64,000 bases of DNA. It comes from Yuukianura sp. NJ FZ-2021. Its lineage: Eukaryota. Location: the NCBI GenBank assembly GCA_046563655.1, contig JAJCTO010000011.1:620001-684000 (forward strand), in the 5' to 3' direction. Positions 336 to 54,333 of this stretch are shown here, piece by piece. Under the pieces are notes generated by a model. The model had not been told where the DNA came from. It worked only from the letters and a program-made list of their open reading frames with translations, and made no database searches. How positions within the stretch are numbered: position 1 is the first letter of the stretch; each line of letters begins with the position of its first letter. The position numbers were made by a program, and so were the translations under genes.

Positions 336-356
336 ATACCTGGTATTTAATTGGAG

Positions 357-4020: not shown

Positions 4021-4177
4021 GACGCACATTGTACGCACGGCCATAAGCCAAAGTGTTAACGGTTTACATGTTGGCGGTTAGATTGACGCTGAGGTCACAC
4101 CTTAAGTTTTCGTGGTCTGCAATAAAGAATTGAGGCGATTATATTTTTTGTCAAGTGGATTTGTATTGATTTTTAGA

Positions 4178-4865
4178 GAGCTTACCTCACGACAGGGGGT
4201 CCTTGGATTTGGGGGAGATCGCGTATGCAAAGTAGCATCTTCCTTATTTTTCAAAATCACATTACAGTAATATACTTTGTGCCAAATCGGAATGGCATCT
4301 TGTCAAGTGCTGAGGCCCCTCTGGGGTGAAACAATCCAACTCGAAATGACTTATACAAATGCGGAGCCTTTACATTTCATTTTGGCGACATGTTCTGCCA
4401 AATCGTGAAAGCTTGACGCTGCACTTTCCCTCAACTTATGAAACCCATAGATGACAAGCGTAGAGAGTTTAGTGGTGCATACTTTAATGTTTCGTAAAAA
4501 CTGGTATCATTGCTTAGCCAGCCAGGTTCGTACGCTGCATAAAAAATTTTGCCACTAACCGTCAAGATTTACAATCTACAGCACATTAGCGTTTAACTTC
4601 TCTACCAATAAATTTACACAAATTCATTCTCTCAAATTTAAGTCGTTTTCGGCAAAATGGTGCTCGGCATTGCTCTGGGTGCCGTTTACCAACCCAAGAT
4701 AAACTCCGAGGCAGAGCGGTTCATCCAGACTTTTAAGTACACTCTAACCAGATTTAATGGCGATCTATCCACGCCAATCAAACTTGCGTTCCTGTAGTAC
4801 TTTTCAGGAGGATTTCAGAAAAGTAACCCATTTTCACCCGGCATCGCTCCGAGTGGAGGTTTCTG
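4178..4865 (+). pseudogene. Decayed Ty3/Gypsy integrase (pre-IN linker, H2C2 zinc finger, rve core), with frameshifts and stops
   Basis: Manual translation gives, in order: ELTSRQGVLGFGGDRVC (4178-4228), QIGMASCQVLR (4283), KCGAF (4357), KPIDDKRREFSGAY (4441), STNKFTQIHSLKFKSF (4601), QNGARH, GAVYQPKINSEAERFIQTFKYTLTR (4678-4752), then FRKVTHF / GIAP. Order and spacing match the Gypsy consensus ELSVEDGCLLWGxRV…HPG…CxxC…RPWERIHIDFAGP…SDNGPQFTSEEFKxF…NGIRH…APYHPxxNGxAERFVQTFK…YRxTPHSTTGxxP. Confidence 0.7.
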
Positions 4866-7800
4866 AAACAAATTTTCATAAAGAAAAGTAACGAGATGAG
4901 GGACGACACGGCAAGTGAAAGTGGGTTCCTGTAGCACTTTTTATGAGGATTTCGAAAATGTAGTCGACTTTCTGTTCATTCTCACCTTTGCATGTTCATT
5001 CTCACAAATTTAAGTCGTTTTCGGCAAAATGGTGCTCGGCATTGCTCTGGGTGCCGTTTACCAACCCAAGATAAACTCCAAGGCAGAGCGGTTCATCCAG
5101 ACTTTTAAGTACACTCTAACCAGATTTAATGGCGATCTATCCACGCCAATCAAACTTGGGTTCCTGTAGTACTTTTCATGAGGATTTCAGAAAAGTAACC
5201 CATTTTCACCCGGCATCGCTCCGAGGAGGTTTCTGAAACAAATTTTCATAAAGAAAAGTAACGAGATGAGGGACGCCACGGCAAGTGAAAGTGGGCTCCT
5301 GTAGCACTTTTTATGAGGATTTCGAAAATGTAGTTGACTTTTACCCAGCATCGTTCCGGAATGCATTTCTTTTGAATTCTTTGTTTTGAAACTTGAATTT
5401 TCATAAAGAAAAGTAACGACATGAGGGACGCCACGGCAAGTGAAAGTGGGTTCCTGTAGCACTTTTTATGAGGATTTCGAAAATGTAGTTGACTTTTACC
5501 CAGCACCGTTCCGGAATGCATTTCTTTTGAATTCTTTGTTTTGAGACTTGAATTTTCATAAATAAAGGTAACAAGATGAGGCACGACACAGCAAGTGAAA
5601 GTGGGCTCCTGTAGCACTTTTTATGAGGGTTTCGAAAATGTAGTCGACTTTCTGTTCATTCTCACATTTGCATGTTCATTCTCACAAATTTAAGTCGTTT
5701 TCGGCAAAATGGTGCTCGGCATTGCTCTGGGTGCCGTTTACCAACCCAAGATAAACTCCGAGGCAGAGCGGTTCATCCAGACTTTTATGTACACTCTAAC
5801 CAGATTTAATGACGATCTATCCACGCCAATCAAACTTGGGTTCCTGTAGTACTTTTCATGAGGATTTCAGAAAAGTAACCCATTTTCACCCGGCATCGCT
5901 CCGAGGAGGTTTCTGAAACAAATTTTCATAAAGAAAAGTAACGAGATGAGGGACGCCACGGCAAGTGAAAGTGGGTTCCTGTAGCACTTTTTATGAGGAT
6001 TTCGAAAATGAAGTTGACTTTTACCCAGCATCGTTCTGGAATGCATTTCTTTTGAATTCTTTGTTTTGAAACTTGAATTTTCATAAAGAAAAGCAACGAG
6101 ATGAGGGACGCCACGGCAAGTGAAAGTGGGTTCCTGTAGCACTTTTTATGAGGATTTCGAAAATGTAGTTGACTTTTACCCAGCACCGTTCCGGAATGCA
6201 TTTCTTTTGAATTCTTTGTTTTGAGACTTGAATTTTCATAAAGAAAAGTAACGACATGAGGGACGCCACGGCAAGTGAAAGTGGGTTCCTGTAGCACTTT
6301 TTATGAGGATTTCGAAAATGTAGTTGACTTTTACCCAGCACCGTTCCGGAATGCATTTCTTTTGAATTCTTTGTTTTGAGACTTGAATTTTCATAAATAA
6401 AGGTAACAAGATGAGGCACGACACAGCAAGTGAAAGTGGGCTCCTGTAGCACTTTTTATGAGGGTTTCGAAAATGTAGTCGACTTTCTGTTCATTCTCAC
6501 ATTTGCATGTTCATTCTCACAAATTTAAGTCGTTTTCGGCAAAATGGTGCTCGGCATTGCTCTGGGTGCCGTTTACCAACCCAAGATAAACTCCGAGGCA
6601 GAGCGGTTCATCCAGACTTTTATGTACACTCTAACCAGATTTAATGACGATCTATCCACGCCAATCAAACTTGGGTTCCTGTAGTACTTTTCATGAGGAT
6701 TTCAGAAAAGTAACCCATTTTCACCCGGCATCGCTCCGAGGATTTTTCTGAAACAAATTTTCATAAAGAAAAGTAACGAGATGAGGGACGCCACGGCAAG
6801 TGAAAGTGGGTTCCTGTAGCACTTTTTATGAGGATTTCGAAAATGAAGTTGACTTTTACCCAGCATCGTTCTGGAATGCATTTCTTTTGAATTCTTTGTT
6901 TTGAAACTTGAATTTTCATAAAGAAAAGCAACGAGATGAGGGACGCCACGGCAAGTGAAAGTGGGTTCCTGTAGCACTTTTTATGAGGATTTCGAAAATG
7001 TAGTTGACTTTTACCCAGCACCGTTCCGGAATGCATTTCTTTTGAATTCTTTGTTTTGAGACTTGAATTTTCATAAATAAAGGTAACAAGATGAGGCACG
7101 ACACAGCAATTGAAAGTGGGCTCCTGTAGCACTTTTTATGAGGGTTTCAAAAATGTAGTTGACTTTTACCTAGCATCGTTCCGGAATGCATTTCTTTTGA
7201 ATTCTTTGTTTTGAAACTTGGATTTTCATAAAGAAAAGTAACGAGATGAGGGACGACACGGCAAGTGAAAGTGGGTTCCTGTAGCACTTTTTATGAGGAT
7301 TTCGAAAATGTAGTTGACTTTTACCCAGCATCGTTCCGGAATGCATTTCTTTTGAATTCTTTGTTTTGAAACTTGAATTTTCATAAAGAAAAGTAACGAG
7401 ATGAGGGACGCCACGGCAAGTGAAAGTGGGTTCCTGTAGCACTTTTTATGAGGATTTCGAAAATGTAGTTGACTTTTACCCAGCACCGTTCCGGAATGCA
7501 TTTCTTTTGAATTCTTTGTTTTGAGACTTGAATTTTCATAAATAAAGGTAACAAGATGAGGCACGACACAGCAAGTGAAAGTGGGCTCCTGTAGCACTTT
7601 TTATGAGGGTTTCAAAAATGTAGTTGACTTTTACCTAGCATCGTTCCGGAATGCATTTCTTTTGAATTCTTTGTTTTGAAACTTGAATTTTCATAAAGAA
7701 AAGTAACGAGATGAGGGACGACACGGCAAGTGAAAGTGGGTTCCTGTAGCACTTTTTATGAGGATTTCGAAAATGTAGTCGACTTTCTTTTCATTCTCAC

Positions 7801-10800
7801 ATTTGCATGTTCATTCTCACAAATTTAAGTCGTTTTCGGCAAAATGGTGCTCGGCATTGCTCTGGGTGCCGTTTACCAACCCAAGATAAACTCCAAGGCA
7901 GAGCGGTTCATCCAGACTTTTAAGTACACTCTAACCAGATTTAATGGCGATCTATCCACGCCAATCAAACTTGGGTTCCTGTAGTACTTTTCATGAGGAT
8001 TTCAGAAAAGTAACCCATTTTCACCCGGCATCGCTCCGAGGAGGTTTCTGAAACAAATTTTCATAAAGAAAAGTAACGAGATGAGGGACGCCACGGCAAG
8101 TGAAAGTGGGTTCCTGTAGCACTTTTTATGAGGATTTCGAAAATGAAGTTGACTTTTACCCAGCATCGTTCTGGAATGCATTTCTTTTGAATTCTTTGTT
8201 TTGAAACTTGAATTTTCATAAAGAAAAGCAACGAGATGAGGGACGCCACGGCAAGTGAAAGTGGGTTCCTGTAGCACTTTTTATGAGGATTTCGAAAATG
8301 TAGTTGACTTTTACCCAGCACCGTTCCGGAATGCATTTCTTTTGAATTCTTTGTTTTGAGACTTGAATTTTCATAAATAAAGGTAACAAGATGAGGCACG
8401 ACACAGCAAGTGAAAGTGGGCTCCTGTAGCACTTTTTATGAGGGTTTCAAAAATGTAGTTGACTTTTACCTAGCATCGTTCCGGAATGCATTTCTTTTGA
8501 ATTCTTTGTTTTGAAACTTGGATTTTCATAAAGAAAAGTAACGAGATGAGGGACGACACGGCAAGTGAAAGTGGGTTCCTGTAGCACTTTTTATGAGGAT
8601 TTCGAAAATGTAGTTGACTTTTACCCAGCATCGTTCCGGAATGCATTTCTTTTGAATTCTTTGTTTTGAAACTTGAATTTTCATAAAGAAAAGTAACGAG
8701 ATGAGGGACGCCACGGCAAGTGAAAGTGGGTTCCTGTAGCACTTTTTATGAGGATTTCGAAAATGTAGTTGACTTTTACCCAGCACCGTTCCGGAATGCA
8801 TTTCTTTTGAATTCTTTGTTTTGAGACTTGAATTTTCATAAATAAAGGTAACAAGATGAGGCACGACACAGCAAGTGAAAGTGGGCTCCTGTAGCACTTT
8901 TTATGAGGGTTTCAAAAATGTAGTTGACTTTTACCTAGCATCGTTCCGGAATGCATTTCTTTTGAATTCTTTGTTTTGAAACTTGGATTTTCATAAAGAA
9001 AAGTGACGAGATGAGGGACGACACGGCAAGTGAAAGTGGGTTCCTGTAGCACTTTTTATGAGGATTTCGAAAATGTAGTCGACTTTCTTTTCATTCTCAC
9101 ATTTGCATGTTCATTCTCACAAATTTAAGTCGTTTTCGGCAAAATGGTGCTCGGCATTGCTCTGGGTGCCGTTTACCAACCCAAGATAAACTCCAAGGCA
9201 GAGCGGTTCATCCAGACTTTTAAGTACACTCTAACCAGATTTAATGGCGATCTATCCACGCCAATCAAACTTGGGTTCCTGTAGTACTTTTCATGAGGAT
9301 TTCAGAAAAGTAACCCATTTTCACCCGGCATCGCTCCGAGGAGGTTTCTGAAACAAATTTTCATAAAGAAAAGTAACGAGATGAGGGACGCCACGGCAAG
9401 TGAAAGTGGGTTCCTGTAGCACTTTTTATGAGGATTTCGAAAATGTAGTTGACTTTTACCCAGCATCGTTCCGGAATGCATTTCTTTTGAATTCTTTGTT
9501 TTGAAACTTGAATTTTCATAAAGAAAAGCAACGAGATGAGGGACGCCACGGCAAGTGAAAGTGGGTTCCTGTAGCACTTTTTATGAGGATTTCGAAAATG
9601 TAGTTGACTTTTACCCAGCACCGTTCCGGAATGCATTTCTTTTGAATTCTTTGTTTTGAGACTTGAATTTTCATAAATAAAGGTAACAAGATGAGGCACG
9701 ACACAGCAAGTGAAAGTGGGCTCCTGTAGCACTTTTTATGAGGGTTTCAAAAATGTAGTTGACTTTTACCTAGCATCGTTCCGGAATGCATTTCTTTTGA
9801 ATTCTTTGTTTTGAAACTTGAATTTTCATAAAGAAAAGTAACGAGATGAGGGACGCCACGGCAAGTGAAAGTGGGTTCCTGTAGCACTTTTTATGAGGAT
9901 TTCGAAAATGTAGTTGACTTTTACCCAGCACCGTTCCGGAATGCATTTCTTTTGAATTCTTTGTTTTGAGACTTGAATTTTCATAAATAAAGGTAACAAG
10001 ATGAGGCACGACACAGCAAGTGAAAGTGGGCTCCTGTAGCACTTTTTATGAGGGTTTCAAAAATGTAGTTGACTTTTACCTAGCATCGTTCCGGAATGCA
10101 TTTCTTTTGAATTCTTTGTTTTGAAACTTGGATTTTCATAAAGAAAAGTGACGAGATGAGGGACGACACGGCAAGTGAAAGTGGGTTCCTGTAGCACTTT
10201 TTATGAGGATTTCGAAAATGTAGTCGACTTTCTTTTCATTCTCACATTTGCATGTTCATTCTCACAAATTTAAGTCGTTTTCGGCAAAATGGTGCTCGGC
10301 ATTGCTCTGGGTGCCGTTTACCAACCCAAGATAAACTCCAAGGCAGAGCGGTTCATCCAGACTTTTAAGTACACTCTAACCAGATTTAATGGCGATCTAT
10401 CCACGCCAATCAAACTTGGGTTCCTGTAGTACTTTTCATGAGGATTTCAGAAAAGTAACCCATTTTCACCCGGCATCGCTCCGAGGAGGTTTCTGAAACA
10501 AATTTTCATAAAGAAAAGTAACGAGATGAGGGACGCCACGGCAAGTGAAAGTGGGTTCCTGTAGCACTTTTTATGAGGATTTCGAAAATGTAGTTGACTT
10601 TTACCCAGCATCGTTCCGGAATGCATTTCTTTTGAATTCTTTGTTTTGAAACTTGAATTTTCATAAAGAAAAGCAACGAGATGAGGGACGCCACGGCAAG
10701 TGAAAGTGGGTTCCTGTAGCACTTTTTATGAGGATTTCGAAAATGTAGTTGACTTTTACCCAGCACCGTTCCGGAATGCATTTCTTTTGAATTCTTTGTT

Positions 10801-13800
10801 TTGAGACTTGAATTTTCATAAATAAAGGTAACAAGATGAGGCACGACACAGCAAGTGAAAGTGGGCTCCTGTAGCACTTTTTATGAGGGTTTCAAAAATG
10901 TAGTTGACTTTTACCTAGCATCGTTCCGGAATGCATTTCTTTTGAATTCTTTGTTTTGAAACTTGAATTTTCATAAAGAAAAGTAACGAGATGAGGGACG
11001 CCACGGCAAGTGAAAGTGGGTTCCTGTAGCACTTTTTATGAGGATTTCGAAAATGTAGTTGACTTTTACCCAGCACCGTTCCGGAATGCATTTCTTTTGA
11101 ATTCTTTGTTTTGAGACTTGAATTTTCATAAATAAAGGTAACAAGATGAGGCACGACACAGCAAGTGAAAGTGGGCTCCTGTAGCACTTTTTATGAGGGT
11201 TTCAAAAATGTAGTTGACTTTTACCTAGCATCGTTCCGGAATGCATTTCTTTTGAATTCTTTGTTTTGAAACTTGGATTTTCATAAAGAAAAGTGACGAG
11301 ATGAGGGACGACACGGCAAGTGAAAGTGGGTTCCTGCAGCACTTTTTATGAGGATTTCGAAAATGTAGTCGACTTTCTTTTCATTCTCACATTTGCATGT
11401 TCATTCTCACAAATTTAAGTCGTTTTCGGCAAAATGGTGCTCGGCATTGCTCTGGGTGCCGTTTACCAACCCAAGATAAACTCCAAGGCAGAGCGGTTCA
11501 TCCAGACTTTTAAGTACACTCTAACCAGATTTAATGGCGATCTATCCACGCCAATCAAACTTGGGTTCCTGTAGTACTTTTCATGAGGATTTCAGAAAAG
11601 TAACCCATTTTCACCCGGCATCGCTCCGAGGAGGTTTCTGAAACAAATTTTCATAAAGAAAAGTAACGAGATGAGGGACGACACGGCAAGTGGAAGTGGG
11701 TTCCTGTAGCACTTTTTATGAGGATTTCGAAAATGTAGTCGACTTTCTGTTCATTCTCACATTTGCATGTTCATTCTCACAAATTTAAGTCGTTTTCGGC
11801 AAAATGGTGCTCGGCATTGCTCTGGGTGCCGTTTACCAACCCAAGATAAACTCCAAGGCAGAGCGGTTCATCCAGACTTTTAAGTACACTCTAACCAGAT
11901 TTAATGGCGATCTATCCACGCCAATCAAACTTGGGTTCCTGTAGTACTTTTCATGAGGATTTCGAAAATGAAGTTGACTTTTACCCAGCATCGTTCTGGA
12001 ATGCATTTCTTTTGAATTCTTTGTTTTGAAACTTGAATTTTCATAAAGAAAAGCAACGAGATGAGGGACGCCACGGCAAGTGAAAGTGGGTTCCTGTAGC
12101 ACTTTTTATGAGGATTTCGAAAATGTAGTTGACTTTTACCCAGCACCGTTCCGGAATGCATTTCTTTTGAATTCTTTGTTTTGAGACTTGAATTTTCATA
12201 AAGAAAAGTAACGACATGAGGGACGCCACGGCAAGTGAAAGTGGGTTCCTGTAGCACTTTTTATGAGGATTTCGAAAATGTAGTTGACTTTTACCCAGCA
12301 CCGTTCCGGAATGCATTTCTTTTGAATTCTTTGTTTTGAGACTTGAATTTTCATAAATAAAGGTAACAAGATGAGGCACGACACAGCAAGTGAAAGTGGG
12401 CTCCTGTAGCACTTTTTATGAGGGTTTCGAAAATGTAGTCGACTTTCTGTTCATTCTCACATTTGCATGTTCATTCTCACAAATTTAAGTCGTTTTCGGC
12501 AAAATGGTGCTCGGCATTGCTCTGGGTGCCGTTTACCAACCCAAGATAAACTCCGAGGCAGAGCGGTTCATCCAGACTTTTATGTACACTCTAACCAGAT
12601 TTAATGGCGATCTATCCACGCCAATCAAACTTGGGTTCCTGTAGTACTTTTCATGAGGATTTCAGAAAAGTAACCCATTTTCACCCGGCATCGCTCCGAG
12701 GAGGTTTCTGAAACAAATTTTCATAAAGAAAAGTAACGAGATGAGGGACGCCACGGCAAGTGAAAGTGGGTTCCTGTAGCACTTTTTATGAGGATTTCGA
12801 AAATGTAGTTGACTTTTACCCAGCATCGTTCCGGAATGCATTTCTTTTGAATTCTTTGTTTTGAAACTTGAATTTTCATAAAGAAAAGCAACGAGATGAG
12901 GGACGCCACGGCAAGTGAAAGTGGGTTCCTGTAGCACTTTTTATGAGGATTTCGAAAATGTAGTTGACTTTTACCCAGCATCGTTCCGGAATGCATTTCT
13001 TTTGAATTCTTTGTTTTGAAACTTGAATTTTCATAAATAAAGGTAACAAGATGAGGCACGACACAGCAAGTGAAAGTGGGTTCCTGTAGCACTTTTTATG
13101 AGGATTTCAAAAATGTAGTTGACTTTTACCTAGCATCGTTCCGGAATGCATTTCTTTTGAATTCTTTGTTTTGAAACTTGAATTTTCATAAAGAAAAGTA
13201 ACGAGATGAGGGACGCCACGGCAAGTGAAAGTGGGTTCCTGTAGCACTTTTTATGAGGATTTCGAAAATGTAGTTGACTTTTACCCAGCACCGTTCCGGA
13301 ATGCATTTCTTTTGAATTCTTTGTTTTGAGACTTGAATTTTCATAAATAAAGGTAACAAGATGAGGCACGACACAGCAAGTGAAAGTGGGCTCCTGTAGC
13401 ACTTTTTATGAGGGTTTCAAAAATGTAGTTGACTTTTACCTAGCATCGTTCCGGAATGCATTTCTTTTGAATTCTTTGTTTTGAAACTTGGATTTTCATA
13501 AAGAAAAGTGACGAGATGAGGGACGACACGGCAAGTGAAAGTGGGTTCCTGCAGCACTTTTTATGAGGATTTCGAAAATGTAGTCGACTTTCTTTTCATT
13601 CTCACATTTGCATGTTCATTCTCACAAATTTAAGTCGTTTTCGGCAAAATGGTGCTCGGCATTGCTCTGGGTGCCGTTTACCAACCCAAGATAAACTCCA
13701 AGGCAGAGCGGTTCATCCAGACTTTTAAGTACACTCTAACCAGATTTAATGGCGATCTATCCACGCCAATCAAACTTGGGTTCCTGTAGTACTTTTCATG

Positions 13801-29600: not shown

Positions 29601-30810
29601 CGGCAAGTGAAAGTGGGTTCCTGTAGCACTTTTTATGAGGATTTCGAAAATGTAGTTGACTTTTACCCAGCATCGTTCCGGAATGCATTTCTTTTGAATT
29701 CTTTGTTTTGAAACTTGAATTTTCATAAATAAAGGTGACAAGATGAAAGACGACGCAGCCAGTGAAAGTGGGCTCCTGTAGCACTTTTTATGAGGATTTC
29801 AAAAATGTAATTTACTTTCTGTTCATTCTCACATTTGCATGTTCATTCTCATAAATTTAAGTCGTTTTCGGCAAAATGGTGCTCGGCATTGCTCTGGGTG
29901 CCGTTTACCAACCCAAGATAAACTCCAAGGCAGAGCGGTTCATCCAGACTTTTAAGTACACTCTAACCAGATTTAATGGCGATCTATCCACGCCAATCAA
30001 ACTTGGGTTCCTGTAGTACTTTTCATGAGGATTTCAGAAAAGTAACCCATTTTCACCCGGCATCGCTCCGAGGAGGTTTCTGAAACAAATTTTCATAAAG
30101 AAAAGTAACGAGATGAGGGACGCCACGGCAAGTGAAAGTGGGTTCCTGTAGCACTTTTTATGAGGATTTCGAAAATGTAGTTGACTTTTACCCAGCATCG
30201 TTCCGGAATGCATTTCTTTTGAATTCTTTGTTTTGAAACTTGAATTTTCATAAAGAAAAGTAACGAGATGAGGGACGCCACGGCAAGTGAAAGTGGATTC
30301 CTGTAGCACTTTTTATGAGGATTTCGAAAATGTAGTTGACTTTTACCCAGCATCGTTCCGGAATGCATTTCTTTTGAATTCTTTGTTTTGAAACTTGAAT
30401 TTTCATAAATAAAGGTAACAAGATGAGGGACGACACGGCAAGTGAATGTGGGGTTCTGTAGCACTTTTTATGAGGATTTCAAAAATGTAGTTGACTTTTA
30501 CCTAGCATCGTTCCGGAATGCATTTCTTTTGAATTCTTTGTTTTGAAACTTGAATTTTCATAAATAAAGGTAACAAGATGAGGCACGACACAGCAAGTGA
30601 AAGTGGGCTCCTGTAGCACTTTTTATGAGGATTTCAAAAATGTAGTCGACTTTCTGTTCATTCTCACATTTGCATGTTCATTCTCACAAATTTAAGTCGT
30701 TTTCGACAAAATGGTGCTCGGCATTGCCCTGGGTGCCGTTTACCAACCCAAGATAAACTCCGAGGCAGAGCGGTTCATCCAGACTTTTAAGTACACTCTA
30801 ACCAGATTTA

Positions 30811-32523
30811 ATGGCGATCTATCCACGCCAATCAAACTTGGGTTCCTGTAGTACTTTTCAGGAGGATTTCAGAAAAGTACCCGAATGTCTGCCAACAATT
30901 AAGAAAAAGTTTCAATTTAAAAACGTCACAACACGAGAGGTCGCTACATCATGGAACAATATGAAAAAAAAGAATTCAACTACAACCGACACTACTGGAC
31001 TATGCGCATACATGATTGAACTAACTTTACGGGCCCCTAACATACTCAACAGTGTGACAGACATAATCAACGAAAGTTTCAAATCGTCAGTGGTTCCAGA
31101 CTCTCTTAAGCAAGCGCAAATTATTCTAATTCCCAAATGCCGGAAGCCCTGTGGTCTAAAGGATTACAGACCCATATCAATTCTTCCTGTACTTTTTAAA
31201 ATCATTGAAAAGTGCGCAAAATCTCAACTGCTGAAACATTTGGAACATAATAATGTAATACACGAAAATCAATTCGGGTTTATCAAAGGAAGTTCAACAG
31301 TTCACGCCCAACTCGCAGTAACCGATGCCTTATACGATGGCTTTCATAAAAACAAAGTCTGCGCCGTCATAACACTAGATTTATCCAAAGCTTTCGACAC
31401 GGTCAACCAGAAGATTTTACTTGAAAAGCTGTCATGGTACGAAATCGAACACAAATGGTTTTCCTCTTATCTATCTTCACGGAAACAATTCGTCTCACTG
31501 GGCGGGGAAAAATCCTCAAACATAGAAATTAAACTTGGAACTCCACAAGGCGGAATACTTTCACCTCTACTTTTCACCATCATGGTCAATGATCTCCTAC
31601 TGCAATTCCAAAAATTTAGCAAAAATCTCCTCATCATGTTTGCTGACGACAACACTATGGTCGTTACAGGTGACCCAAGCACCCTTCAACAATTTAAACA
31701 AGAAGTAGAAGAAAGTGTGGAATTTGTCGTTAAGTGGATGAGTGAAAATCAGTTGATCATTAACCCAACAAAAAGTGCAATTCTATTATGCGCCAAACCC
31801 AGTATCCTAAAAAGTGTCGGCGAAATGAACTTTCTAATTTGCGGAGAAAATGTTCAGTCAAGTAAAGAAATTACCAGCTTAGGATTAATCATTGACAATT
31901 CAATGAAATGGGACGCTCACATTACATCAATTTCTAAGAAAACACGCAGTGTCATAGCTTCACTCTATCCTCTACAAAGATTTCTTAATATGAAAAACCG
32001 GAAAACTATGATGGAAGCTTACGTTTTCTCCAAAGTTACATATATGTGCGAGATCTGGGGAAAAGCAAACAAGCAAAACCTTAAAACTGTGGAAAAAGTT
32101 ATTCGTGCTGCAGGAAGATTTGTACTCAACGGGAAAAAATATGACCCAGTGAAAGCGAAGGTCACGACCGAATTGAACTGGCTCTTTCCCAAACATCTAA
32201 CTGATTTCCGTACAACATGGCTAGTTTCGACTATCATCTTAGGAAACTGCCCAAATTACTTTACAAATTACTTCAGCGAAGTCCAGTATACTCAATCAAG
32301 TACAACTACTAGAAGGAAGACTCATGTAGCAAATTTAAACCGGAGAATTCATCCTCAATCCTTCAAAGCAAGTGGTTTTCGCAAGTGGATGGAAACGGAA
32401 GAGGATGTACGACGACTTACCAATCCAACTGCAATAAAAATGAAGCTTCAGGACCATTTTTTGAAAGCTCAACAAAAGGAACTCGAACGCGGAAATGATA
32501 TTCATATTGAGGATGAGGATTGA
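30811..32523 (+). CDS. 570-aa ORF: 23 satellite-derived codons fused in frame to LINE reverse transcriptase
   Basis: The ATG and MAIYPRQSNLGSCSTFQEDFRKV come from satellite unit A/B (30811-30879). The rest is LINE ORF2 with all RT motifs. Confidence 0.85.
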   Translation: MAIYPRQSNLGSCSTFQEDFRKVPECLPTIKKKFQFKNVTTREVATSWNNMKKKNSTTTDTTGLCAYMIELTLRAPNILNSVTDIINESFKSSVVPDSLKQAQIILIPKCRKPCGLKDYRPISILPVLFKIIEKCAKSQLLKHLEHNNVIHENQFGFIKGSSTVHAQLAVTDALYDGFHKNKVCAVITLDLSKAFDTVNQKILLEKLSWYEIEHKWFSSYLSSRKQFVSLGGEKSSNIEIKLGTPQGGILSPLLFTIMVNDLLLQFQKFSKNLLIMFADDNTMVVTGDPSTLQQFKQEVEESVEFVVKWMSENQLIINPTKSAILLCAKPSILKSVGEMNFLICGENVQSSKEITSLGLIIDNSMKWDAHITSISKKTRSVIASLYPLQRFLNMKNRKTMMEAYVFSKVTYMCEIWGKANKQNLKTVEKVIRAAGRFVLNGKKYDPVKAKVTTELNWLFPKHLTDFRTTWLVSTIILGNCPNYFTNYFSEVQYTQSSTTTRRKTHVANLNRRIHPQSFKASGFRKWMETEEDVRRLTNPTAIKMKLQDHFLKAQQKELERGNDIHIEDED

Positions 32524-32827
32524 AAAAATTCAATACGTAAAACACCTATTTTAGTAATGTAAGCTTTAAAGCAAAATAATTATAAATAAGTCATTCCATC
32601 ACAAACATAATTTTATAATTTTACAACAATTTAAAAAAAAAACCAATTAGAAAAGCCATTTCTCAATAATCCTAGTAACTATTAAGACACACATCTTTCT
32701 TTAAATTACAACCGATACAGGTACACTAAATATTAGCAATATTAATTATAAGCCACTAAAACTATCACTAATTCTTATTCTGAAAAGCCTGCCATAAACA
32801 GGAGAATAAATGAAAATGAAAATGAAA
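30880..32827 (+). mobile_element. 5'-truncated CR1/L2-group LINE, copy 2
   Basis: Near-identical to 21663-23608 at offset 9217, with the same truncation point and flanks. Confidence 0.93.
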
Positions 32828-35800
32828 AAGTAACCCAGTTTCACCCGGCATCGCTCCGAAGAGGTTTCTGAAACAAATTTTCATAAAGAAAAGTAACGAG
32901 ATGAGGGACGCCACGGCAAGTGAAAGTGGGTTCCTGTAGCACTTTTTATGAGGATTTCGAAAATGTAGTTGACTTTTACCCAGCATCGTTCCGGAATGCA
33001 TTTCTTTTGAATTCTTTGTTTTGAAACTTGGATTTTCATAAAGAAAAGTAACGAGATGAGGGACGACACGGCAAGTGAAAGTGGGTTCCTGTAGCACTTT
33101 TTATGAGGATTTCGAAAATGTAGTCGACTTTCTGTTCATTCTCACATTTGCATGTTCATTCTCACAAATTTAAGTCGTTTTCGGCAAAATGGTGCTCGGC
33201 ATTGCTCTGGGTGCCGTTTACCAACCCAAGATAAACTCCAAGGCAGAGCGGTTCATCCAGACTTTTAAGTACACTCTAACCAGATTTAATGGCGATCTAT
33301 CCACGCCAATCAAACTTGGGTTCCTGTAGTACTTTTCATGAGGATTTCAGAAAAGTAACCCATTTTCACCCGGCATCGCTCCGAGGAGGTTTGTGAAACA
33401 AATTTTCATAAAGAAAAGTAACGAGATGAGGGACGCCACGGCAAGTGAAAGTGGGTTCCTGTAGCACTTTTTATGAGGATTTCGAAAATGTAGTTGACTT
33501 TTACCCAGCATCGTTCCGGAATGCATTTCTTTTGAATTCTTTGTTTTGAAACTTGAATTTTCATAAAGAAAAGTAACGAGATGAGGGACGCCACGGCAAG
33601 TGAAAGTGGGTTCCTGTAGCACTTTTTATGAGGATTTCGAAAATGTAGTTGACTTTTACCCAGCACCGTTCCGGAATGCATTTCTTTTGAATTCTTTGTT
33701 TTGAGACTTGAATTTTCATAAATAAAGGTAACAAGATGGGGCACGACACAGCAAGTGAAAGTGGGCTCCTGTAGCACTTTTTATGAGGGTTTCAAAAATG
33801 TAGTTGACTTTTACCTAGCATCGTTCCGGAATGCATTTCTTTTGAATTCTTTGTTTTGAAACTTGGATTTTCATAAAGAAAAGTAACGAGATGAGGGACG
33901 ACACGGCAAGTGAAAGTGGGTTCCTGTAGCACTTTTTATGAGGATTTCGAAAATGTAGTCGACTTTCTGTTCATTCTCACATTTGCATGTTCATTCTCAC
34001 AAATTTAAGTCGTTTTCGACAAAATGGTGCTCGGCATTGCCCTGGGTGCCGTTTACCAACCCAGGATAAACTCCGAGGCAGAGCGGTTCATCCAGACTTT
34101 TAAGTACACTCTAACCAGATTTAATGGCGATCTATCCACGCCAATCAAACTTGGGTTCCTGTAGTACTTTTCATGAGGATTTCAGAAAAGTAACCCATTT
34201 TCACCCGGCATCGCTCCGAGGAGGTTTCTGAAACAAATTTTCATAAAGAAAAGTAACGAGATGAGGGACGCCACGGCAAGTGAAAGTGGGTTCCTGTAGC
34301 ACTTTTATGAGGATTTCGAAAATGTAGTTGACTTTTACCCAGCATCGTTCCGGAATGCATTTCTTTTGAATTCTTTGTTTTGAAACTTGAATTTTCATAA
34401 AGAAAAGTAACGAGATGAGGGACGCCACGGCAAGTGAAAGTGGGTTCCTGTAGCACTTTTTATGAGGATTTCGAAAATGTAGTTGACTTTTACCCAGCAT
34501 CGTTCCGGAATGCATTTCTTTTGAATTCTTTGTTTTGAAACTTGAATTTTCATAAATAAAGGTAACAAGATGAGGGACGACACGGCAAGTGAATGTGGGG
34601 TTCTGTAGCACTTTTTATGAGGGTTTCAAAAATGTAGTTGACTTTTACCTAGCATCGTTCCGGAATGCATTTCTTTTGAATTCTTTGTTTTGAAACTTGA
34701 ATTTTCATAAATAAAGGTAACAAGATGAGGCACGACACAGCAAGTGAAAGTGGGTTCCTGTAGCACTTTTTATGAGGATTTCAAAAATGTAGTTGACTTT
34801 TACCTAGCATCGTTCCGGAATGCATTTCTTTTGAATTCTTTGTTTTGAAACTTGAATTTTCATAAATAAAGGTAACAAGATGAGGCACGACACAGCAAGT
34901 GAAAGTGGGTTCCTGTAGCACTTTTTATGAGGATTTCAAAAATGTAGTCGACTTTCTGTTCATTCTCACATTTGCATGTCCATTCTCACAAATTTAAGTC
35001 GTTTTCGACAAAATGGTGCTCGGCATTGCCCTGGGTGCCGTTTACCAACCCAAGATAAACTCCGAGGCAGAGCGGTTCATCCAGACTTTTAAGTACACTC
35101 TAACCAGATTTCATGGCGATCTATCCACGCCAATCAAACTTGGGTTCCTGTAGTACTTTTCAGGAGGATTTCAGAAAAGTAACCCAGTTTCACCCGGCAT
35201 CGCTCCGAGGAGGTTTCTGAAACAAATTTTCATAAAGAAAAGTAACGAGATGAGGGACGCCACGGCAAGTGAAAGTGGGTTCCTGTAGCACTTTTTATGA
35301 GGATTTCGAAAATGTAGTTGACTTTTACCCAGCATCGTTCCGGAATGCATTTCTTTTGAATTCTTTGTTTTGAAACTTGAATTTTCATAAAGAAAAGTAA
35401 CGAGATGAGGGACGCCACGGCAAGTGAAAGTGGGTTCCTGTAGCACTTTTTATGAGGATTTCGAAAATGTAGTTGACTTTTACCCAGCATCGTTCCGGAA
35501 TGCATTTCTTTTGAATTCTTTGTTTTGAAACTTGAATTTTCATAAATAAAGGTAACAAGATGAGGGACGACACGGCAAGTGAAATGTGGGGTTCTGTAGC
35601 ACTTTTTATGAGGGTTTCAAAAATGTAGTTGACTTTTACCTAGCATCGTTCCGGAATGCATTTCTTTTGAATTCTTTGTTTTGAAACTTGAATTTTCATA
35701 AATAAAGGTAACAAGATGAGGCACGACACAGCAAGTGAAAGTGGGTTCCTGTAGCACTTTTTATGAGGATTTCAAAAATGTAGTTGACTTTTACCTAGCA

Positions 35801-38800: not shown

Positions 38801-38949
38801 GTAGTACTTTTCAGGAGGATTTCAGAAAAGTAACCCAGTTTCACCCGGCATCGCTCCGAGGAGGTTTCTGAAACAAATTTTCATAAAGAAAAGTAACGAG
38901 ATGAGGGACGCCACGGCAAGTGAAAGTGGGTTCCTGTAGCACTTTTTAT

Positions 38950-41900: not shown

Positions 41901-44900
41901 GATTTCAGAAAAGTAACTCATTTTCACACGGCATCGCTCCGCGTGGAGGTTTTTCGAATAATTTGTTTTGAAACAATTTTCATAAAAAAAAGTCAGAAGA
42001 TGAGGGACGACATAGCAAGTGAAAGCGGGTTCCCGTAGCCTTTTTTATGAGGATTTCAAAAATATAGTTGACTTTTACGAAGCATCGTTCCGGAATGCAT
42101 TTCTTTTGAATTCTATGTTTTGAAACATGAATTTTCATAAATAAAGGTAACAAGATGATGGACGACACAGCAAGTGAAAGTGGGTTCCTGTAGCACTTTT
42201 TATGAGGATTTCAAAAATACAGTTGACTTTTGCCCAGCATCGTTCTGGAATGCATTTCTTTTGAATTCTTTGTTTTGAAATATGAATTTTCATAAATAAA
42301 GGTAACAAGATGATGAACGACACAGCAAGTGAAAGTGGGTTCCTGTAGCACTTTTGATTAGGATTTCAAAAATATAGTTGACTTTTACCCAGCATCGTTC
42401 CGGAATGCATTTCTTTTGAATTTTTTGTTTTTGAACATGAATTTTCATAAATAAAGGTAACAAGATGATGGACGACACAACAAGTGAAAGTGGGTTCCTG
42501 TAGCACTTTTTATGAGGATTTCAAAAATGTAATTTACTTTCTGTTCATTCTCACATTTGCATGTTCACTCTCACAAATTTAAGTCGCTTTGTGTCAAAAT
42601 GGTGCTCGACATTGCCCTGGGTGCCGTATTCCAACCCGAGATAAAATCCGAGGTTGAGCGGTTCATTCAGACTTTTAAGTACGCTCTAACCAGATTTAAT
42701 TGCGATCTATCCACGCCAGTTAAACTTGGGTTCCTGTAGTACTTTTCAGGAGGATTTCAGAAAAGTAACTCATTTTCACACGGCATCGCTCCGCGTGGAG
42801 GTTTTTCGAATAATTTGTTTTGAAACAAATTTTCATAAAAAAAAGTCAGAAGATGAGGGACGACATAGCAAGTGAAAGCGGGTTCCCGTAGCCTTTTTTA
42901 TGAGGATTTCAAAAATATAGTTGACTTTTACCAAGCATCGTTCCGGAATGCATTTCTTTTGAATTCTATGTTTTGAAACATGAATTTTCATAAATAAAGG
43001 TAACAAGATGATGGGACGACACAGCAAGTGAAAGTGGGTTCCTGTAGCACTTTTTATGAGGATTTCAAAAATACAGTTGACTTTTGCCCAGCATCGTTCT
43101 GGAATGCATTTCTTTTGAATTCTTTGTTTTGAAATATGAATTTTCATAAATAAAGGTAACAAGATGATGAACGACACAGCAAGTGAAAGTGGGTTCCTGT
43201 AGCACTTTTTATGAGGATTTCAAAAATATAGTTGACTTTTACCCAGCATCGTTCCGGAATGCATTTCTTTTGAATTTTTTGTTTTTAAACATGAATTTTC
43301 ATAAATAAAGGTAACAAGATGATGGACGACACAACAAGTGAAAGTGGGTTCCTGTAGCACTTTTTATGAGGATTTCAAAAATGTAATTTACTTTCTGTTC
43401 ATTCTCACATTTGCATGTTCACTCTCACAAATTTAAGTCGCTTTGTGTCAAAATGGTGCTCGACATTGCCCTGGGTGCCGTATTCCAACCCGAGATAAAA
43501 TCCGAGGTTGAGCGGTTCATTCAGACTTTTAAGTACGCTCTAACCAGATTTAATTGCGATCTATCCACGCCAGTTAAACTTGGGTTCCTGTAGTACTTTT
43601 CAGGAGGATTTCAGAAAAGTAACTCATTTTCACACGGCATCGCTCCGCGTGGAGGTTTTTCGAATAATTTGTTTTGAAACAAATTTTCATAAAAAAAAAG
43701 TCAGAAGATGAGGGACGACACAGCAAGTGAAAGCGGGTTCCCGTAGCCCTTTTTATGAGGATTTCAAAAATACAGTTGACTTTTACCCAGCATCGTTCTG
43801 GAATGCATTTCTTTTGAATTCTTTGTTTTGAAATATGAATTTTCATAAATAAGGGTAACAAGATGATGAACGACACAGCAAGTGAAAGTGGGTTCCTGTA
43901 GCCCTTTTTATGAGGATTTCAAAAATACAGTTGACTTTTACCCAGCATCGTTCTGGAATGCATTTCTTTTGAATTTTTTGTTTTTAAACATGAATTTTCA
44001 TAAATAAAGGTAACAAGATGATGGACGACACAACAAGTGAAAGTGGGTTCCTGTAGCCCTTTTTATGAGGATTTCAAAAATACAGTTGACTTTTACCCAG
44101 CATCGTTCTGGAATGCATTTCTTTTGAATTCTTTGTTTTGAAATATGAATTTTCATAAATAAAGGTAACAAGATGATGAACGACACAGCAAGTGAAAGTG
44201 GGTTCCTGTAGCATTTTTATGAGGATTTCAAAAATATAGTTGACTTTTACCAAGCATCGTTCCGGAATGCATTTCTTTTGAATTCTATGTTTTGAAACAT
44301 GAATTTTCATAAATAAAGGTAACAAGATGATGGACGACACAACAAGTGAAAGTGGGTTCCTGTAGCACTTTTTATGAGGATTTCAAAAATGTAATTTACT
44401 TTCTGTTCATTCTCACATTTGCATGTTCACTCTCACAAATTTAAGTCGCTTTGTGTCAAAATGGTGCTCGACATTGCCCTGGGTGCCGTATTCCAACCCG
44501 AGATAAAATCCGAGGTTGAGCGGTTCATTCAGACTTTTAAGTACGCTCTAACCAGATTTAATTGCGATCTATCCACGCCAGTTAAACTTGGGTTCCTGTA
44601 GTACTTTTCAGGAGGATTTCAGAAAAGTAACTCATTTTCACACGGCATCGCTCCGCGTGGAGGTTTTTCGAATAATTTGTTTTGAAACAATTTTCATAAA
44701 AAAAAGTCAGAAGATGAGGGACGACACAGCAAGTGAAAGCGGGTTCCCGTAGCCTTTTTTATGAGGATTTCAAAAATATAGTTGACTTTTACCAAGCATC
44801 GTTCCGGGAATGCATTTCTTTTGAATTCTATGTTTTGAAACATGAATTTTCATAAATAAAGGTAACAAGATGATGGACGACACAGCAAGTGAAAGTGGGT

Positions 44901-47789
44901 TCCTGTAGCCCTTTTTATGAGGATTTCAAAAATACAGTTGACTTTTACCCAGCATCGTTCTGGAATGCATTTCTTTTGAATTCTTTGTTTTGAAATATGA
45001 ATTTTCATAAATAAAGGTAACAAGATGATGAACGACACAGCAAGTGAAAGTGGGTTCCTGTAGCACTTTTTATGAGGATTTCAAAAGTGTAGTTGACTTT
45101 TACCCAGCATTGTTCCGGAATGCATTTCTTTTGAATTTTTTGTTTTGAAACATGAATTTTCATAAATAATGGTGACAAGATAAGGGACGACACAGCAAGT
45201 GAAAGTGGGTTCCTGTAGCACTTTTTATGAGGATTTCAAAAATGTAATTTACTTTCTGTTCATTCTCACATTTGCATGTTCACTCTCACAAATTTAAGTC
45301 GCTTTGTGTCAAAATGGTGCTCGACATTGCCCTGGGTGCCGTATTCCAACCCGAGATAAAATCCGAGGTTGAGCGGTTCATTCAGACTTTTAAGTACGCT
45401 CTAACCAGATTTAATTGCGATCTATCCACGCCAGTTAAACTTGGGTTCCTGTAGTACTTTTCAGGAGGATTTCAGAAAAGTAACTCATTTTCACACGGCA
45501 TCGCTCCGCGTGGAGGTTTTTCGAATAATTTGTTTTGAAACAATTTTCATAAAAAAAGTCAGAAGATGAGGGACGACACAGCAAGTGAAAGCGGGTTCCC
45601 GTAGCCTTTTTTATGAGGATTTCAAAAATATAGTTGACTTTTACCAAGCATCGTTCCGGAATGCATTTCTTTTGAATTCTATGTTTTGAAACATGAATTT
45701 TCATAAATAAAGGTAACAAGATGATGGACGACACAGCAAGTGAAAGTGGGTTCCTGTAGCACTTTTTATGAGGACTTCAAAAATGTAATTTACTTTCTGT
45801 TCATTCTCACATTTGCGTGTTCACTCTCACAAATTTAAGTCGCTTTGTGTCAAAATGGTGCTCGACATTGCCCTGGGTGCCGTATTCCAACCCGAGATAA
45901 AATCCGAGGTTGAGCGGTTCATTCAGACTTTTAAGTACGCTCTAACCAGATTTAATTGCGATCTATCCACGCCAGTTAAACTTGGGTTCCTGTAGAACTT
46001 TTCAGGAGGATTTCAGAAAAGTAACTCATTTTCACACGGCATCGCTCCGCGTGGAGGTTTTTCGAATAATTTGTTTTGAAACAAATTTTCATAAAAAAAG
46101 TCAGAAGATGAGGGACGACACAGCAAGTGAAAGCGGGTTCCCGTAGCCCTTTTTATGAGGATTTCAAAAATACAGTTGACTTTTACCCAGCATCGTTCTG
46201 GAATGCATTTCTTTTGAATTCTATGTTTTGAAACATGAATTTTCATAAATAAAGGTAACAAGATGATGGACGACACAGCAAGTGAAAGTGGGTTCCTGTA
46301 GCACTTTTTATGAGGATTTCAGAAAAGTAACTCATTTTCGCCCGGCATCGCTCCGCGTGGAGGTTTTTCGTGTGATTTGTTTTGAAAAAAATTTTTATAA
46401 AAAAGGGTCACGAGATGAGGGACGACACAGCAACTGAACGCGGGTTCCTGTAGCCCTTTTTATGAGGATTTCAAAAATACAGTTGACTTTTGCCCAGCAT
46501 CGTTCTGGAATGCATTTCTTTTGAATTTTTTGTTTTTAAACATGAATTTTCATAAATAAAGGTAACAAGATGATGGACGACACAACAAGTGAAAGTGGGT
46601 TCTTGTAGCACTTTTTATGAGGATTTCAAAAATGTAATTTACTTTCTGTTCAGTCTCATATTTGCATGTTCACTCTCACAAATTTAAGTCGCTTTGTGTC
46701 AAAATGGTGCTCGACATTGCCCTGGGTGCCGTATTCCAACCCGAGATAAAATCCGAGGTTGAGCGGTTCATTCAGACTTTTAAGTACGCTCTAACCAGAT
46801 TTAATTGCGATCTATCCACGCCAGTTAAACTTGGGTTCCTGTAGTACCCTTTTCAGGAGGATTTCAGAAAAGTAACTCATTTTCACACGGCATCGCTCCG
46901 CGTGGAGGTTTTTCGAATAATTTGTTTTGAAACAAATTTTCATAAATAAAGGTAGAAGATGAGGGACGACACAGCAAGTGAAAGCGGGTTCCCGTAGCCC
47001 TTTTTATGAGGATTTCAAAAATACAGTTGACTTTTACCCAGCATCGTTCTGGAATGCATTTCTTTTGAATTCTTTTGTTTTGAAACATGAATTTTCATAA
47101 ATAAAGGTAACAAGATGATGGACGACACAACAAGTGAAAGTGGGTTCCTGTAGCACTTTTTATGAGGATTTCAAAAATGTAATTTACTTTCTGTTCATTC
47201 TCACATTTGCATGTTCACTCTCACAAATTTAAGTCGCTTTGTGTCAAAATGGTGCTCGACATTGCCCTGGGTGCCGTATTCCAACCCGAGATAAAATCCG
47301 AGGTTGAGCGGTTCATTCAGACTTTTAAGTACGCTCTAACCAGATTTAATTGCGATCTATCCACGCCAGTTAAACTTGGGTTCCTGTAGTACTTTTCAGG
47401 AGGATTTCAGAAAAGTAACTCATTTTCACACGGCATCGCTCCGCGTGGAGGTTTTTCGAATAATTTGTTTTGAAACAAATTTTCATAAAAAAAAGTCAGA
47501 AGATGAGGGACGACACAGCAAGTGAAAGCGGGTTCCCGTAGCCCTTTTTATGAGGATTTCAAAAATACAGTTGACTTTTACCCAGCATCGTTCTGGAATG
47601 CATTTCTTTTGAATTCTTTGTTTTGAAATATGAATTTTCATAAATAAAGGTAACAAGATGATGAACGACACAGCAAGTGAAAGTGGGTTCCTGTAGCCTT
47701 TTTTATGAGGATTTCAAAAATACAGTTGACTTTTACCCAGCATCGTTCTGGAATGCATTTCTTTTGAATTCTTTGTTTTGAAATATGAA
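38950..47789. repeat. Satellite 1, subfamily II (diverged; B unit ~152 bp; more heterogeneous)
   Basis: Diagnostic variants begin abruptly: aaatacagtt, gaaatatgaa, gatgatgaacg, gtcgctttgtgtc. B carries extra ttttcgaataatttgt. Example period 542 = 387+155. Confidence 0.93.
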
Positions 47790-54331: not shown

Positions 54332-54333
54332 TG

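What the first reader, a model, noticed from the sequence alone, without database searches (positions are those of the whole stretch)
4178..47789. A 43-kb higher-order satellite apparently born in situ from a Ty3/Gypsy integrase catalytic core
Seen: unit A (~50 copies) translates, with 1-2 frameshifts, as SHKFKS(F/LC)-QNGARH-GAV(Y/F)QP(K/E)I(N/K)SE(A/V)ERFIQTFKY(T/A)LTR. Known: Gypsy rve cores read FTSEEFKxFCxxNGIRHxxxAPYHPxxNGxAERFVQTFKxAL, including the catalytic E. The single-copy flank just upstream (4178-4620) continues the same protein backwards, in order and at about the expected spacing (linker, H2C2 remnants, KP…EFSG for RPW…DFAG, TNKFTQIHS for SDNGxQFTS). The inferred second-D codon (4607) is 107 nt from the E codon (4714), against 108 for D-X35-E. 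Inference: the array grew from a ~370-390-bp piece of a dead integrase gene and its progenitor locus is still attached. TE-derived satellites are usually described from LTRs/UTRs or TIRs, so a coding-core origin with the source in place would be unusual.
Basis: partly seen in the sequence, partly recalled or inferred. Interest (0 to 1): 0.88.

Follow-up and report, generated by a model that had tools for sequence, protein, structure and literature searches.

The report
Satellite array carrying an integrase fossil
A 43-kb tandem-repeat array carries, in each of its 48 longer units, a decayed 130-140-base piece of a retrotransposon integrase gene, but the DNA beside the array and the main 155-base repeat show no trace of that gene, so it is an ordinary transposon-derived satellite and not a birthplace caught in the act.

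Summary
The array is real. It runs from 4623 to 47789, is built on a 155-bp monomer (B), holds 48 longer A units, and ends in an assembly gap.

The integrase resemblance of unit A is also real, but only a targeted test shows it. General searches fail or are borderline:
- Pfam rve_3 gives E 0.017, no better than noise hits on neighbouring pieces.
- phmmer finds 0 hits among 1.84e9 proteins.

I aligned unit A, allowing frameshifts, to a profile of 105 natural Ty3/Gypsy-type integrases. A scores 37-41 bits. Whole-segment shuffles have mean 13-14 and maximum 22, and 0 of 500 reach the real score in each of three copies.

The homologous stretch is short. In copy 1 it is 4611/4623-4752, from just after the second catalytic D to just past the catalytic E.

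- No RT, RNase H or H2C2 domain lies upstream.
- B and the A tail show no integrase signal.
- Read depth suggests the satellite is far more abundant than this one array, and it occurs under two organism labels.

Verdict: a transposon-fragment-bearing satellite, a new member of a known kind.

The parts
4623..47789 (+). Satellite array. It holds about 230 B-type (155-bp) monomer starts and 48 A units, arranged as A+nB higher-order units. The left domain runs to about 39.4 kb and the right domain from about 39.4 to 47.8 kb.
   Evidence: TRF; core-motif positions and spacings; B-type count; homology to the flank starts at 4623.
4611..4752 (+). Integrase-core fossil in the first A unit. It covers profile positions 203/207-250 of a Ty3/Gypsy-type integrase, with one frameshift near 4674-4677. 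The catalytic-E codon GAG is at 4714. Neither catalytic D is present.
   Evidence: Frameshift-aware profile alignment gives 41.2-42.6 bits, 0 of 500 shuffles. 23 of 47 aligned codons are identical to the best natural integrase. Pfam rve_3 E 0.017 on 4642-4794.
42533..42736 (+). Right-domain variant of A, read as one open 68-codon frame through the same fossil with the motif VERFIQTFK. The best profile path (37.4 bits) runs over window 42569-42694 and still takes 2 frameshifts.
   Evidence: ORF list. Up+motif 23.8 bits against residue shuffles 11.3+-1.7, 0 of 2000. DP 37.4 bits, 0 of 500. ESM Atlas rank 3 is 'Integrase catalytic domain (fragment)' at 0.92.
4788..4870 (+). B* is the diverged B-like tail that follows the insert in every A unit. 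By inference from the unit periods, it is about 135 bp in the left domain and about 152 bp in the right domain.
   Evidence: Sequence; unit arithmetic; no integrase signal.
5241..5651 (+). Example run of plain 155-bp B monomers.
   Evidence: TRF 2.7 copies at 94%; no integrase signal in a B dimer, 234 of 400 and 349 of 400 shuffles.
3600..4622 (+). Left flank, single copy within the window, with no detectable integrase, RT or RNase H remnant.
   Evidence: Pfam on ORF pieces; hmmsearch gives negative scores; DP against shuffles; blastn.
21663..23614 (+). 5'-truncated non-LTR (LINE) element with an RT ORF, inserted in a B* tail.
   Evidence: RVT_1 E 3.1e-38; boundaries.
30880..32832 (+). Second copy of the same LINE insertion at the same B* site, carried by a 9,217-bp block duplication.
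6200..11700 (+). Block repeated 8,175 bp further on (14375-19875) at 99.95% identity, showing recent multi-kb duplication within the array.
   Evidence: Offset identity scan.
47790..47889 (.). Run of 100 N (assembly gap) that ends the array.

Best explanation
This is a non-coding satellite array whose basic repeat is a 155-bp monomer (B).

One monomer type (A) carries a 186-187-bp foreign insert. The insert sits between the first 49 bases of a canonical B and a diverged B-like tail (B*). About 130-140 bp of the insert is a pseudogenised piece of a Ty3/Gypsy-type integrase core. It spans from just after the second catalytic Asp to a few codons past the catalytic Glu (..NG.RH..Y.P..N..AERFIQTFK..). 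It has no function as a protein.

The composite unit was then copied together with 1-7 plain B monomers, which gave the A+nB higher-order units. Later events were multi-kb block duplications and a LINE insertion that was itself duplicated.

Shown here: the array anatomy, the integrase homology and its limits, and the lack of homology in the flank, B* and B.

Inferred: the fragment entered a B-type context by a break-repair or insertion event, and growth was by unequal exchange. I put about 50% on capture by a pre-existing B array and about 35% on A+B* being the founding unit from which B arose. In either case there is no evidence that the event happened at this locus.
For: Array anatomy:
- Searches show 48 A units, about 230 B-type starts, periods of 215/232+155k, and an insert of 186/187 bp.

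Integrase homology:
- The profile of 105 of 120 natural integrases was not selected on the motif.
- Scores are copy 1 41.2, copy 2 40.7 and right variant 37.4 bits. Shuffles have mean 13.3-13.6, sd 1.7-1.9, maximum 22.3, and 0 of 500 reach the real score in each. Reverse complements score 10.7-14.0.
- With the 9-residue motif held fixed, the 130 nt upstream still add 13-18 bits, 0 of 400 shuffles in each of two variants, and 0 of 2000 residue shuffles.
- 23 of 47 codons are identical to the best natural integrase, 15 of 38 outside the motif. Median identity over the 105 is 38%.
- The motif back-translated and scanned in metagenome contigs gave 118 loci, and 98 of 118 lie in the H(P)..N(G).AERF integrase context.
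- All 8 natural ORFs tested carry rve, and all 5 long ones also carry RT_RNaseH and Integrase_H2C2.
- ESM Atlas: rank 3 (0.92) is named an integrase catalytic-domain fragment; rank 14 (0.90) is a cluster with rve on 29% of members.

Limits of the homology:
- Cutting the flank off at 4625 leaves the score unchanged.
- Flank tests are non-significant.
- All 8 downstream tests are non-significant.

Later history:
- A block of 8,175 bp is repeated at 99.95% identity.
- LINE copies sit at the same B* site 9,217 bp apart.
Against: - General-purpose searches do not see the homology. Pfam rve_3 gives only E 0.017 and 15.3 bits against a cut-off of 26.5, no better than noise hits among 92 pieces (DUF5651 0.018, Meleagrin 0.024).
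- The right-variant ORF has no Pfam hit.
- phmmer found 0 hits at E<=0.001 among 1.84e9 proteins.
- The word-based search found none.
- The PDB search returned only globins, at E 0.06-1.3.
- The decisive scores come from my own alignment script with dinucleotide-shuffle nulls, not from a standard tool.
- One flank test with a small 13-sequence profile and lax penalties was borderline. It scored 33.3 bits with 8 of 600 shuffles reaching it, and none of 50 natural windows reached it. It vanished with the 105-sequence profile.
- The array's left edge falls within about 12 bp of both the start of the insert and the start of integrase homology. A random array end would do that only about 1 time in 15-30. 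This fits a preserved original edge better than my capture model.
Confidence: 0.8

Rival explanations
1. The array was born here from a 370-390-bp piece of a dead Gypsy integrase gene, and the upstream part of that gene (H2C2, D1, D2) still lies in the flank 4178-4620.
For: - The array starts with the integrase-like segment directly against single-copy DNA.
- The alignment gains 4 codons (+1.4 bits) into the flank, with Asn at 4611 on the N of the S-D-N-G position.
- One lax test of 3600-4650 reached 33.3 bits, 8 of 600 shuffles.
Against: - Flank against the 105-sequence profile: 262, 79 and 150 of 400 shuffles reach the real score, and the reverse complement scores as high.
- Anchored extension through the junction: 150 of 300.
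- hmmsearch best domain is -1.9 bits, the same as minus-strand frames.
- None of 92 ORF pieces from 1-4900 hit RT, RNase H, H2C2 or rve, apart from the rve_3 piece inside A.
- The A fragment keeps 38-49% identity, so a flank of the same age should be easily detectable.
- B* and B show no integrase signal.
- The satellite is far more abundant than this array.
Confidence: 0.1
2. The integrase likeness of A is a chance resemblance picked out by eye, helped by free choice of frames.
For: - No hit among 1.84e9 proteins.
- The Pfam hit is at noise level.
- The PDB search ranks globins first.
Against: - The nulls allow the same frame hops, and 0 of 500 shuffles reach the score in each of three copies, a gap of 13-16 sd.
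- The signal remains when the motif is held fixed.
- Both A motif variants (AERFIQTFK, VERFIQTFK) occur in natural integrases that were not selected on the motif, in 5 and 4 of 105.
- The Atlas points independently to integrase fragments.
Confidence: 0.04
3. The fragment comes not from a Ty3/Gypsy retrotransposon but from another bearer of a Gypsy-like integrase, such as a Ginger-type DNA transposon or a domesticated integrase-derived host gene.
For: - Only about 45 codons survive, too few for a tree.
- No RT, RNase H or LTR lies nearby.
Against: - The best-matching natural proteins (P0017, P0004) carry RVT_1, RT_RNaseH, Integrase_H2C2 and rve together.
- No test against the other classes was possible with the sequences I held.
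Confidence: 0.06

Closest known systems
Satellite DNAs derived from coding parts of transposable elements. Examples listed in the review PMC9659126 (passages of section 2.2 and Table 1 read): chicken HinfI from CR1 ORF2, hamster PROsat from L1 ORF2, rye E3900 from a gag-like ORF, and Chenopodium CficCl-61-40 from a CACTA transposase. The review PMC12628747 (passages read) states that satDNA can arise from LTR, gag or pol segments.
   Same: The tandemly amplified unit contains a decayed stretch of a TE open reading frame, with no coding role.
   Different: Here the TE-derived part is an integrase catalytic-core piece. It makes up only about a third of the shortest unit, and the main 155-bp monomer has no detectable TE origin. 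The word 'integrase' occurs 0 times in either review.
Arctic lamprey LCA-ApaI repeat (PMC5381345; abstract and passages read).
   Same: [quoted passage not shown]
   Different: LCA-ApaI is 702 bp and 70.7% identical to a named element, so it is young and nearly all integrase. Here the piece is 130-140 bp, far more decayed, with no source element at hand, and embedded in a higher-order satellite unit.
Ty3/Gypsy-type pol proteins, labelled 'uncharacterized protein K02A2.6-like' or 'Gypsy retrotransposon integrase-like' by their sources.
   Same: The same local pattern around the catalytic Glu, with 38-49% identity over 42-47 codons.
   Different: The window holds no ORF, no D1 or D2, no H2C2, no RT or RNase H and no LTR. 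It holds a fragment, not an element.
Retrotransposon-derived centromeric tandem repeats of plants: maize CRM1TR/CRM4TR (PMC3648361, abstract and passages read) and Ogre 3'UTR-derived satellites (PMC7004042, search listing only).
   Same: Tandem repeats traceable to an LTR retrotransposon.
   Different: Those derive from LTR/UTR or pre-existing internal repeats, and the source elements are known. Here the source is a coding core and is unknown.

Membership tests
Satellite DNA with higher-order repeat structure | Long head-to-tail array of a short monomer | tested here: met
   155-bp period from 5241 to 47789 at 92-97% matches; about 230 B-type starts.
Satellite DNA with higher-order repeat structure | Composite units and blocks repeated at higher identity than neighbouring monomers | tested here: met
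   A+nB units at 370-1300 bp. Offsets of 1300, 1145 and 2215 bp show 99.3-99.9% identity, and 8,175 bp shows 99.95%.
Satellite DNA with higher-order repeat structure | High genomic abundance | tested here: inconclusive
   Summed contig depth is 1e5-1e6 on the array against about 1e2 on the flank in X1 and X2, with the same direction in X3 and X4. The tool warns that this is not a copy number.
Integrase core domain (Pfam rve / rve_3), as a derived fossil | Significant match to the family profile | tested here: inconclusive
   Pfam rve_3 scores 15.3 bits, below the 26.5 cut-off, and rve gives no hit. A custom frameshift-aware profile of 105 natural integrases gives 37-41 bits, 0 of 500 shuffles.
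Integrase core domain (Pfam rve / rve_3), as a derived fossil | The D,D-35-E catalytic triad | tested here: not met
   Only the E region is present (GAG at 4714). The D2 position falls at or before the array edge and is not Asp. No D1 region is detectable.
Integrase core domain (Pfam rve / rve_3), as a derived fossil | An open reading frame through the domain | tested here: not met
   Left-domain copies need a frameshift near 4674-4677. The right variant is open for 68 codons only.
Ty3/Gypsy LTR retrotransposon (a copy at this locus) | RT, RNase H and H2C2 upstream of the integrase core, plus LTRs | tested here: not met
   None of 92 ORF pieces from 1-4900 hit these families, and the flank DP is non-significant. 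LTRs were not searched for.
TE-derived satellite born in situ (progenitor attached) | The flank is collinear with the source gene across the array edge | tested here: not met

The most novel reading that the evidence does not exclude
This array edge may be the preserved founding junction of the whole satellite family. A single break-repair event would have pasted a roughly 150-bp scrap of a Gypsy integrase next to a proto-B sequence and started the tandem duplication.

That would explain why three things coincide within about 12 bp (4611-4623): the array's left edge, the start of unit A and the start of integrase homology. The flank would then be the original target site, not the integrase gene.
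Probability: 0.12. Interest if true: 0.6.

Novelty: new member of a known kind. Interest (0 to 1): 0.33.

Why it matters
Satellites that keep a recognisable piece of a transposon coding sequence give a datable anchor for when and from what a repeat family arose. An integrase catalytic-core piece is an uncommon source. Neither of the two reviews I searched mentions integrase. The only integrase-homologous repeat I found in 4 literature searches was the lamprey one.

The practical lesson is that such fossils escape Pfam and billion-sequence phmmer searches. They need frameshift-aware, family-targeted tests.

The larger claim, a satellite caught at its birthplace, would have been notable but is not borne out.

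Tried and rejected
- **Globin origin.** The PDB phmmer search of the 68-residue ORF ranked haemoglobin chains first (E 0.059-1.3, per-domain scores 6.8-7.8 bits). This is noise, and I did not pursue it.
- **Word-based homologue search, 'longer' lengths.** 5 candidates, none at E<=10.
- **phmmer against 1.84e9 representatives.** 0 hits.
- **Own-genome search.** No genome is held for this window.
- **Motif scan of viral contigs.** 0 matches.
- **Earlier findings of this scan.** Nothing by place, by sequence or by words.
- **Integrase origin of B or B\*.** The small profile gave marginal values for the left variant only (12 of 500, lax penalties). The broad profile gave nothing in 8 of 8 tests. 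Rejected.
- **Flank signal at 3818-4407.** Small profile with lax penalties gave 8 of 600. It was not reproduced with stricter penalties (83 of 600, 128 of 600) or with the broad profile. I treat it as a fluke.
- **Expression.** No RNA holder was listed among 4 runs.
- **Reads across the junction.** Only short contigs were laid, and no listed piece spans 4623. One 520-nt contig of run X3 fits 4441-4622 and then runs on for 207 letters that do not fit the window at 90% likeness. I could not see those letters.
- **Timed-out call.** timed out and was rerun with fewer shuffles.
- **Papers read by passages with nothing relevant.** PMC9026859, PMC4107277, PMC12129174, PMC12465393, 10.1101/2021.08.09.455742, PMC9241371.
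- **Supplementary files.** None were opened.
Full report
**What is in the window**

Tandem Repeats Finder reports a 155-bp period from 5241 to 47789, with 370-bp and longer composite periods.

The spacings are 370, 525, 680, 835, 990, 1145 and 1300 bp, that is 215+155k. In the last 8 kb they are 541-1008 bp, about 232+155k.

The array is therefore a 155-bp satellite (B, about 230 B-type starts) in which every 2nd to 8th monomer is replaced by a longer A unit.

Each internal A unit has three parts:
- the first 49 bases of a canonical B;
- a 186-187-bp non-B insert;
- a diverged B-like tail (B*) that restarts at B position 1.

The array ends in 100 N (47790-47889), so its true length is unknown.

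Growth has been recent and in large blocks:
- 6200-11700 recurs 8,175 bp further on at 99.95% identity.
- A 1,952-bp LINE fragment (RVT_1, E 3.1e-38) sits at the same B* site twice, at 21663-23614 and 30880-32832, 9,217 bp apart.

The pieces are true translations.

Left-domain copies need frame changes. The right-domain variant has one base more and reads as a single 68-codon open frame, 42533-42736.

**General searches do not establish an integrase**

| Search | Result |
|---|---|
| Pfam on 13 frame pieces of 4100-4900 | only rve_3, E 0.017, 15.3 bits (cut-off 26.5) |
| Pfam on 92 pieces of 1-4900 | unrelated families reach the same level (DUF5651 0.018, Meleagrin 0.024) |
| Pfam on the 68-residue ORF | no hit |
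| Word-based search | no hit |
| phmmer against 1.84e9 proteins | no hit at E<=0.001 |
| PDB | only globins, E 0.06-1.3 |

**A targeted test does establish it**

I back-translated the window's motif AERF(V/I/M)QTFK and scanned metagenome contigs. This gave 118 loci: 98 with V, 18 with I and 2 with M. In 98 of the 118 the motif follows H(P)..N(G)., the integrase context.

All 8 natural ORFs tested carry rve. All 5 long ones also carry RT_RNaseH and Integrase_H2C2, so they are Ty3/Gypsy-type pol genes.

With the motif held fixed as an anchor, the flanking sequence still contributes:
- The 36 residues upstream in the right-variant ORF raise an HMM score from 13.3 to 23.8 bits. Residue shuffles give 11.3+-1.7, and 0 of 2000 reach the real score.
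- With my own frameshift-aware profile-to-DNA aligner, the 130 nt upstream add 18 bits in copy 1 (44.5 against 26.9+-1.3). They add 13 bits in the right variant (37.0 against 24.1+-1.3). In each case 0 of 400 dinucleotide shuffles reach the real score.

To remove the dependence on motif-selected sequences, I collected 120 relatives of one natural integrase. From 105 of them I built a second profile, in which the motif itself varies. AERFIQTFK occurs 5 times and VERFIQTFK 4 times.

I then shuffled the whole A segment. Results:

| Copy | Real score (bits) |
|---|---|
| copy 1 | 41.2 |
| copy 2 | 40.7 |
| right variant | 37.4 |

The nulls have mean 13.3-13.6, sd 1.7-1.9 and maximum 22.3. In each copy 0 of 500 shuffles reach the real score. 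Reverse complements score 10.7-14.0.

The aligned stretch in copy 1 is 4611/4623-4752, profile positions 203/207-250, with one frameshift near 4674-4677. Of 47 aligned codons, 23 equal the best natural integrase, and 15 of 38 do so outside the motif. Median identity over the 105 is 38%.

The ESM Atlas ranks a cluster named 'Integrase catalytic domain-containing protein (Fragment)' third (0.92). A cluster with rve on 29% of its members is fourteenth (0.90). This is a lead that agrees with the targeted test.

I take the integrase origin of this stretch as established at about 0.9.

**The homology stops at both ends**

- *Upstream.* Cutting the DNA at 4625 leaves the score unchanged.
- *Flank by hmmsearch.* The part of the integrase before D2, searched against six frames of 3300-4640, gives -1.9 bits at best, the same as the minus strand.
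Extending the anchored alignment through the junction does too (150 of 300).
- *One borderline result.* A lax-penalty run with the small 13-sequence profile gave 33.3 bits for 3818-4407 (8 of 600 shuffles, 0 of 50 natural windows). It fails with stricter penalties (83 of 600, 128 of 600). With the 105-sequence profile it disappears (262, 79 and 150 of 400).
- *Upstream domains.* No RT, RNase H or H2C2 family is hit in 1-4900.
- *Downstream.* The A tail, B* and a B dimer are non-significant in 8 of 8 tests.

Since the fragment keeps 38-49% identity, a flank of the same origin and age should have been easy to see.

**Reads**

Four runs hold parts of 3600-5200, three under one organism label and one under another, from two studies.

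Summed contig depth jumps from about 1e2 on the flank to 1e5-1e6 on the array in X1 and X2. The same step is seen in X3 and X4. The tool warns that this is not a copy number. It does suggest far more copies than the 48 A and about 230 B units here, so this locus has no prior claim to be the source.

No listed contig spans 4623. One X3 contig fits 4441-4622 and then continues for 207 letters unlike the window. I could not examine it further.

**Interpretation**

The best reading is a B satellite in which one monomer type carries a short scrap of a dead Ty3/Gypsy-type integrase. That scrap was amplified as part of higher-order units.

Whether the scrap was captured by an existing B array or was part of the founding unit cannot be decided here.

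One observation favours a preserved original edge. The array's left end, the start of the insert and the start of integrase homology fall within about 12 bp of each other. This keeps a modified in-situ model alive at about 0.1. In that model the flank is the target site, not the gene.

**Literature**

Two reviews state that satellites can arise from coding parts of transposons:
- PMC12628747 names gag or pol segments (passages read).
- PMC9659126 lists CR1 ORF2, L1 ORF2, a gag-like ORF and a CACTA transposase. It notes that non-coding repeats predominate as sources (passages read).

Neither review contains the word 'integrase'.

The Arctic lamprey LCA-ApaI repeat is homologous to a Gypsy integrase-coding region (PMC5381345, abstract and passages).

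Four full-text searches turned up no other integrase-core-derived satellite. This is not proof that none is in print, and I opened no supplements.

**Verdict**

The finding is a new member of a known kind. The integrase fossil is real and neat. The birth-in-situ claim, which carried most of the interest, is not supported.

Noticed in passing
54706-64000 and 50452-51434: A second, unrelated satellite with a 196-bp period (47.4 copies at 97% matches) runs off the window's end. A 5-copy outpost lies 3 kb upstream of it.
   Followed up: no
47890-54700: A segment of about 4.2 kb is present twice (for example the 96-bp repeats at 48366 and 52584). Long minus-strand open frames of up to 422 codons have no Pfam match. 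It may be an unclassified mobile element or gene family.
   Followed up: partly
21663-23614 and 30880-32832: A 5'-truncated LINE with an intact-looking RT frame (518 codons; RVT_1 E 3.1e-38) is inserted in the B* tail. In the second copy the frame is open back into the satellite (573 codons).
   Followed up: partly
5246-5620 and many other places, minus strand: The minus strand of B monomers stays open for 124 codons across 2.4 monomers and has no Pfam match. This is probably just a stop-poor repeat phase.
   Followed up: partly
358-495: A 17-bp minisatellite (about 7.6 copies at 73% matches) lies in the left flank.
   Followed up: no
39400-47789: The right end of the array is a distinct domain. 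Its A variant carries VERFIQTFK and an open 68-codon frame. Its B* is longer (unit 232+155k), and TRF scores its B runs at 76-94% matches against 92-99% for most runs further left. This looks like an older or less homogenised edge next to the gap.
   Followed up: partly
L002, L011, L019, L020, L025, L038, L070 (metagenome loci): The same nine-residue motif AERFVQTFK also occurs in transposase-like ORFs. They have a different upstream pattern from the retroelement ones, and I took them to be bacterial IS-type without testing them against Pfam. The motif alone therefore does not prove a retroelement.
   Followed up: no
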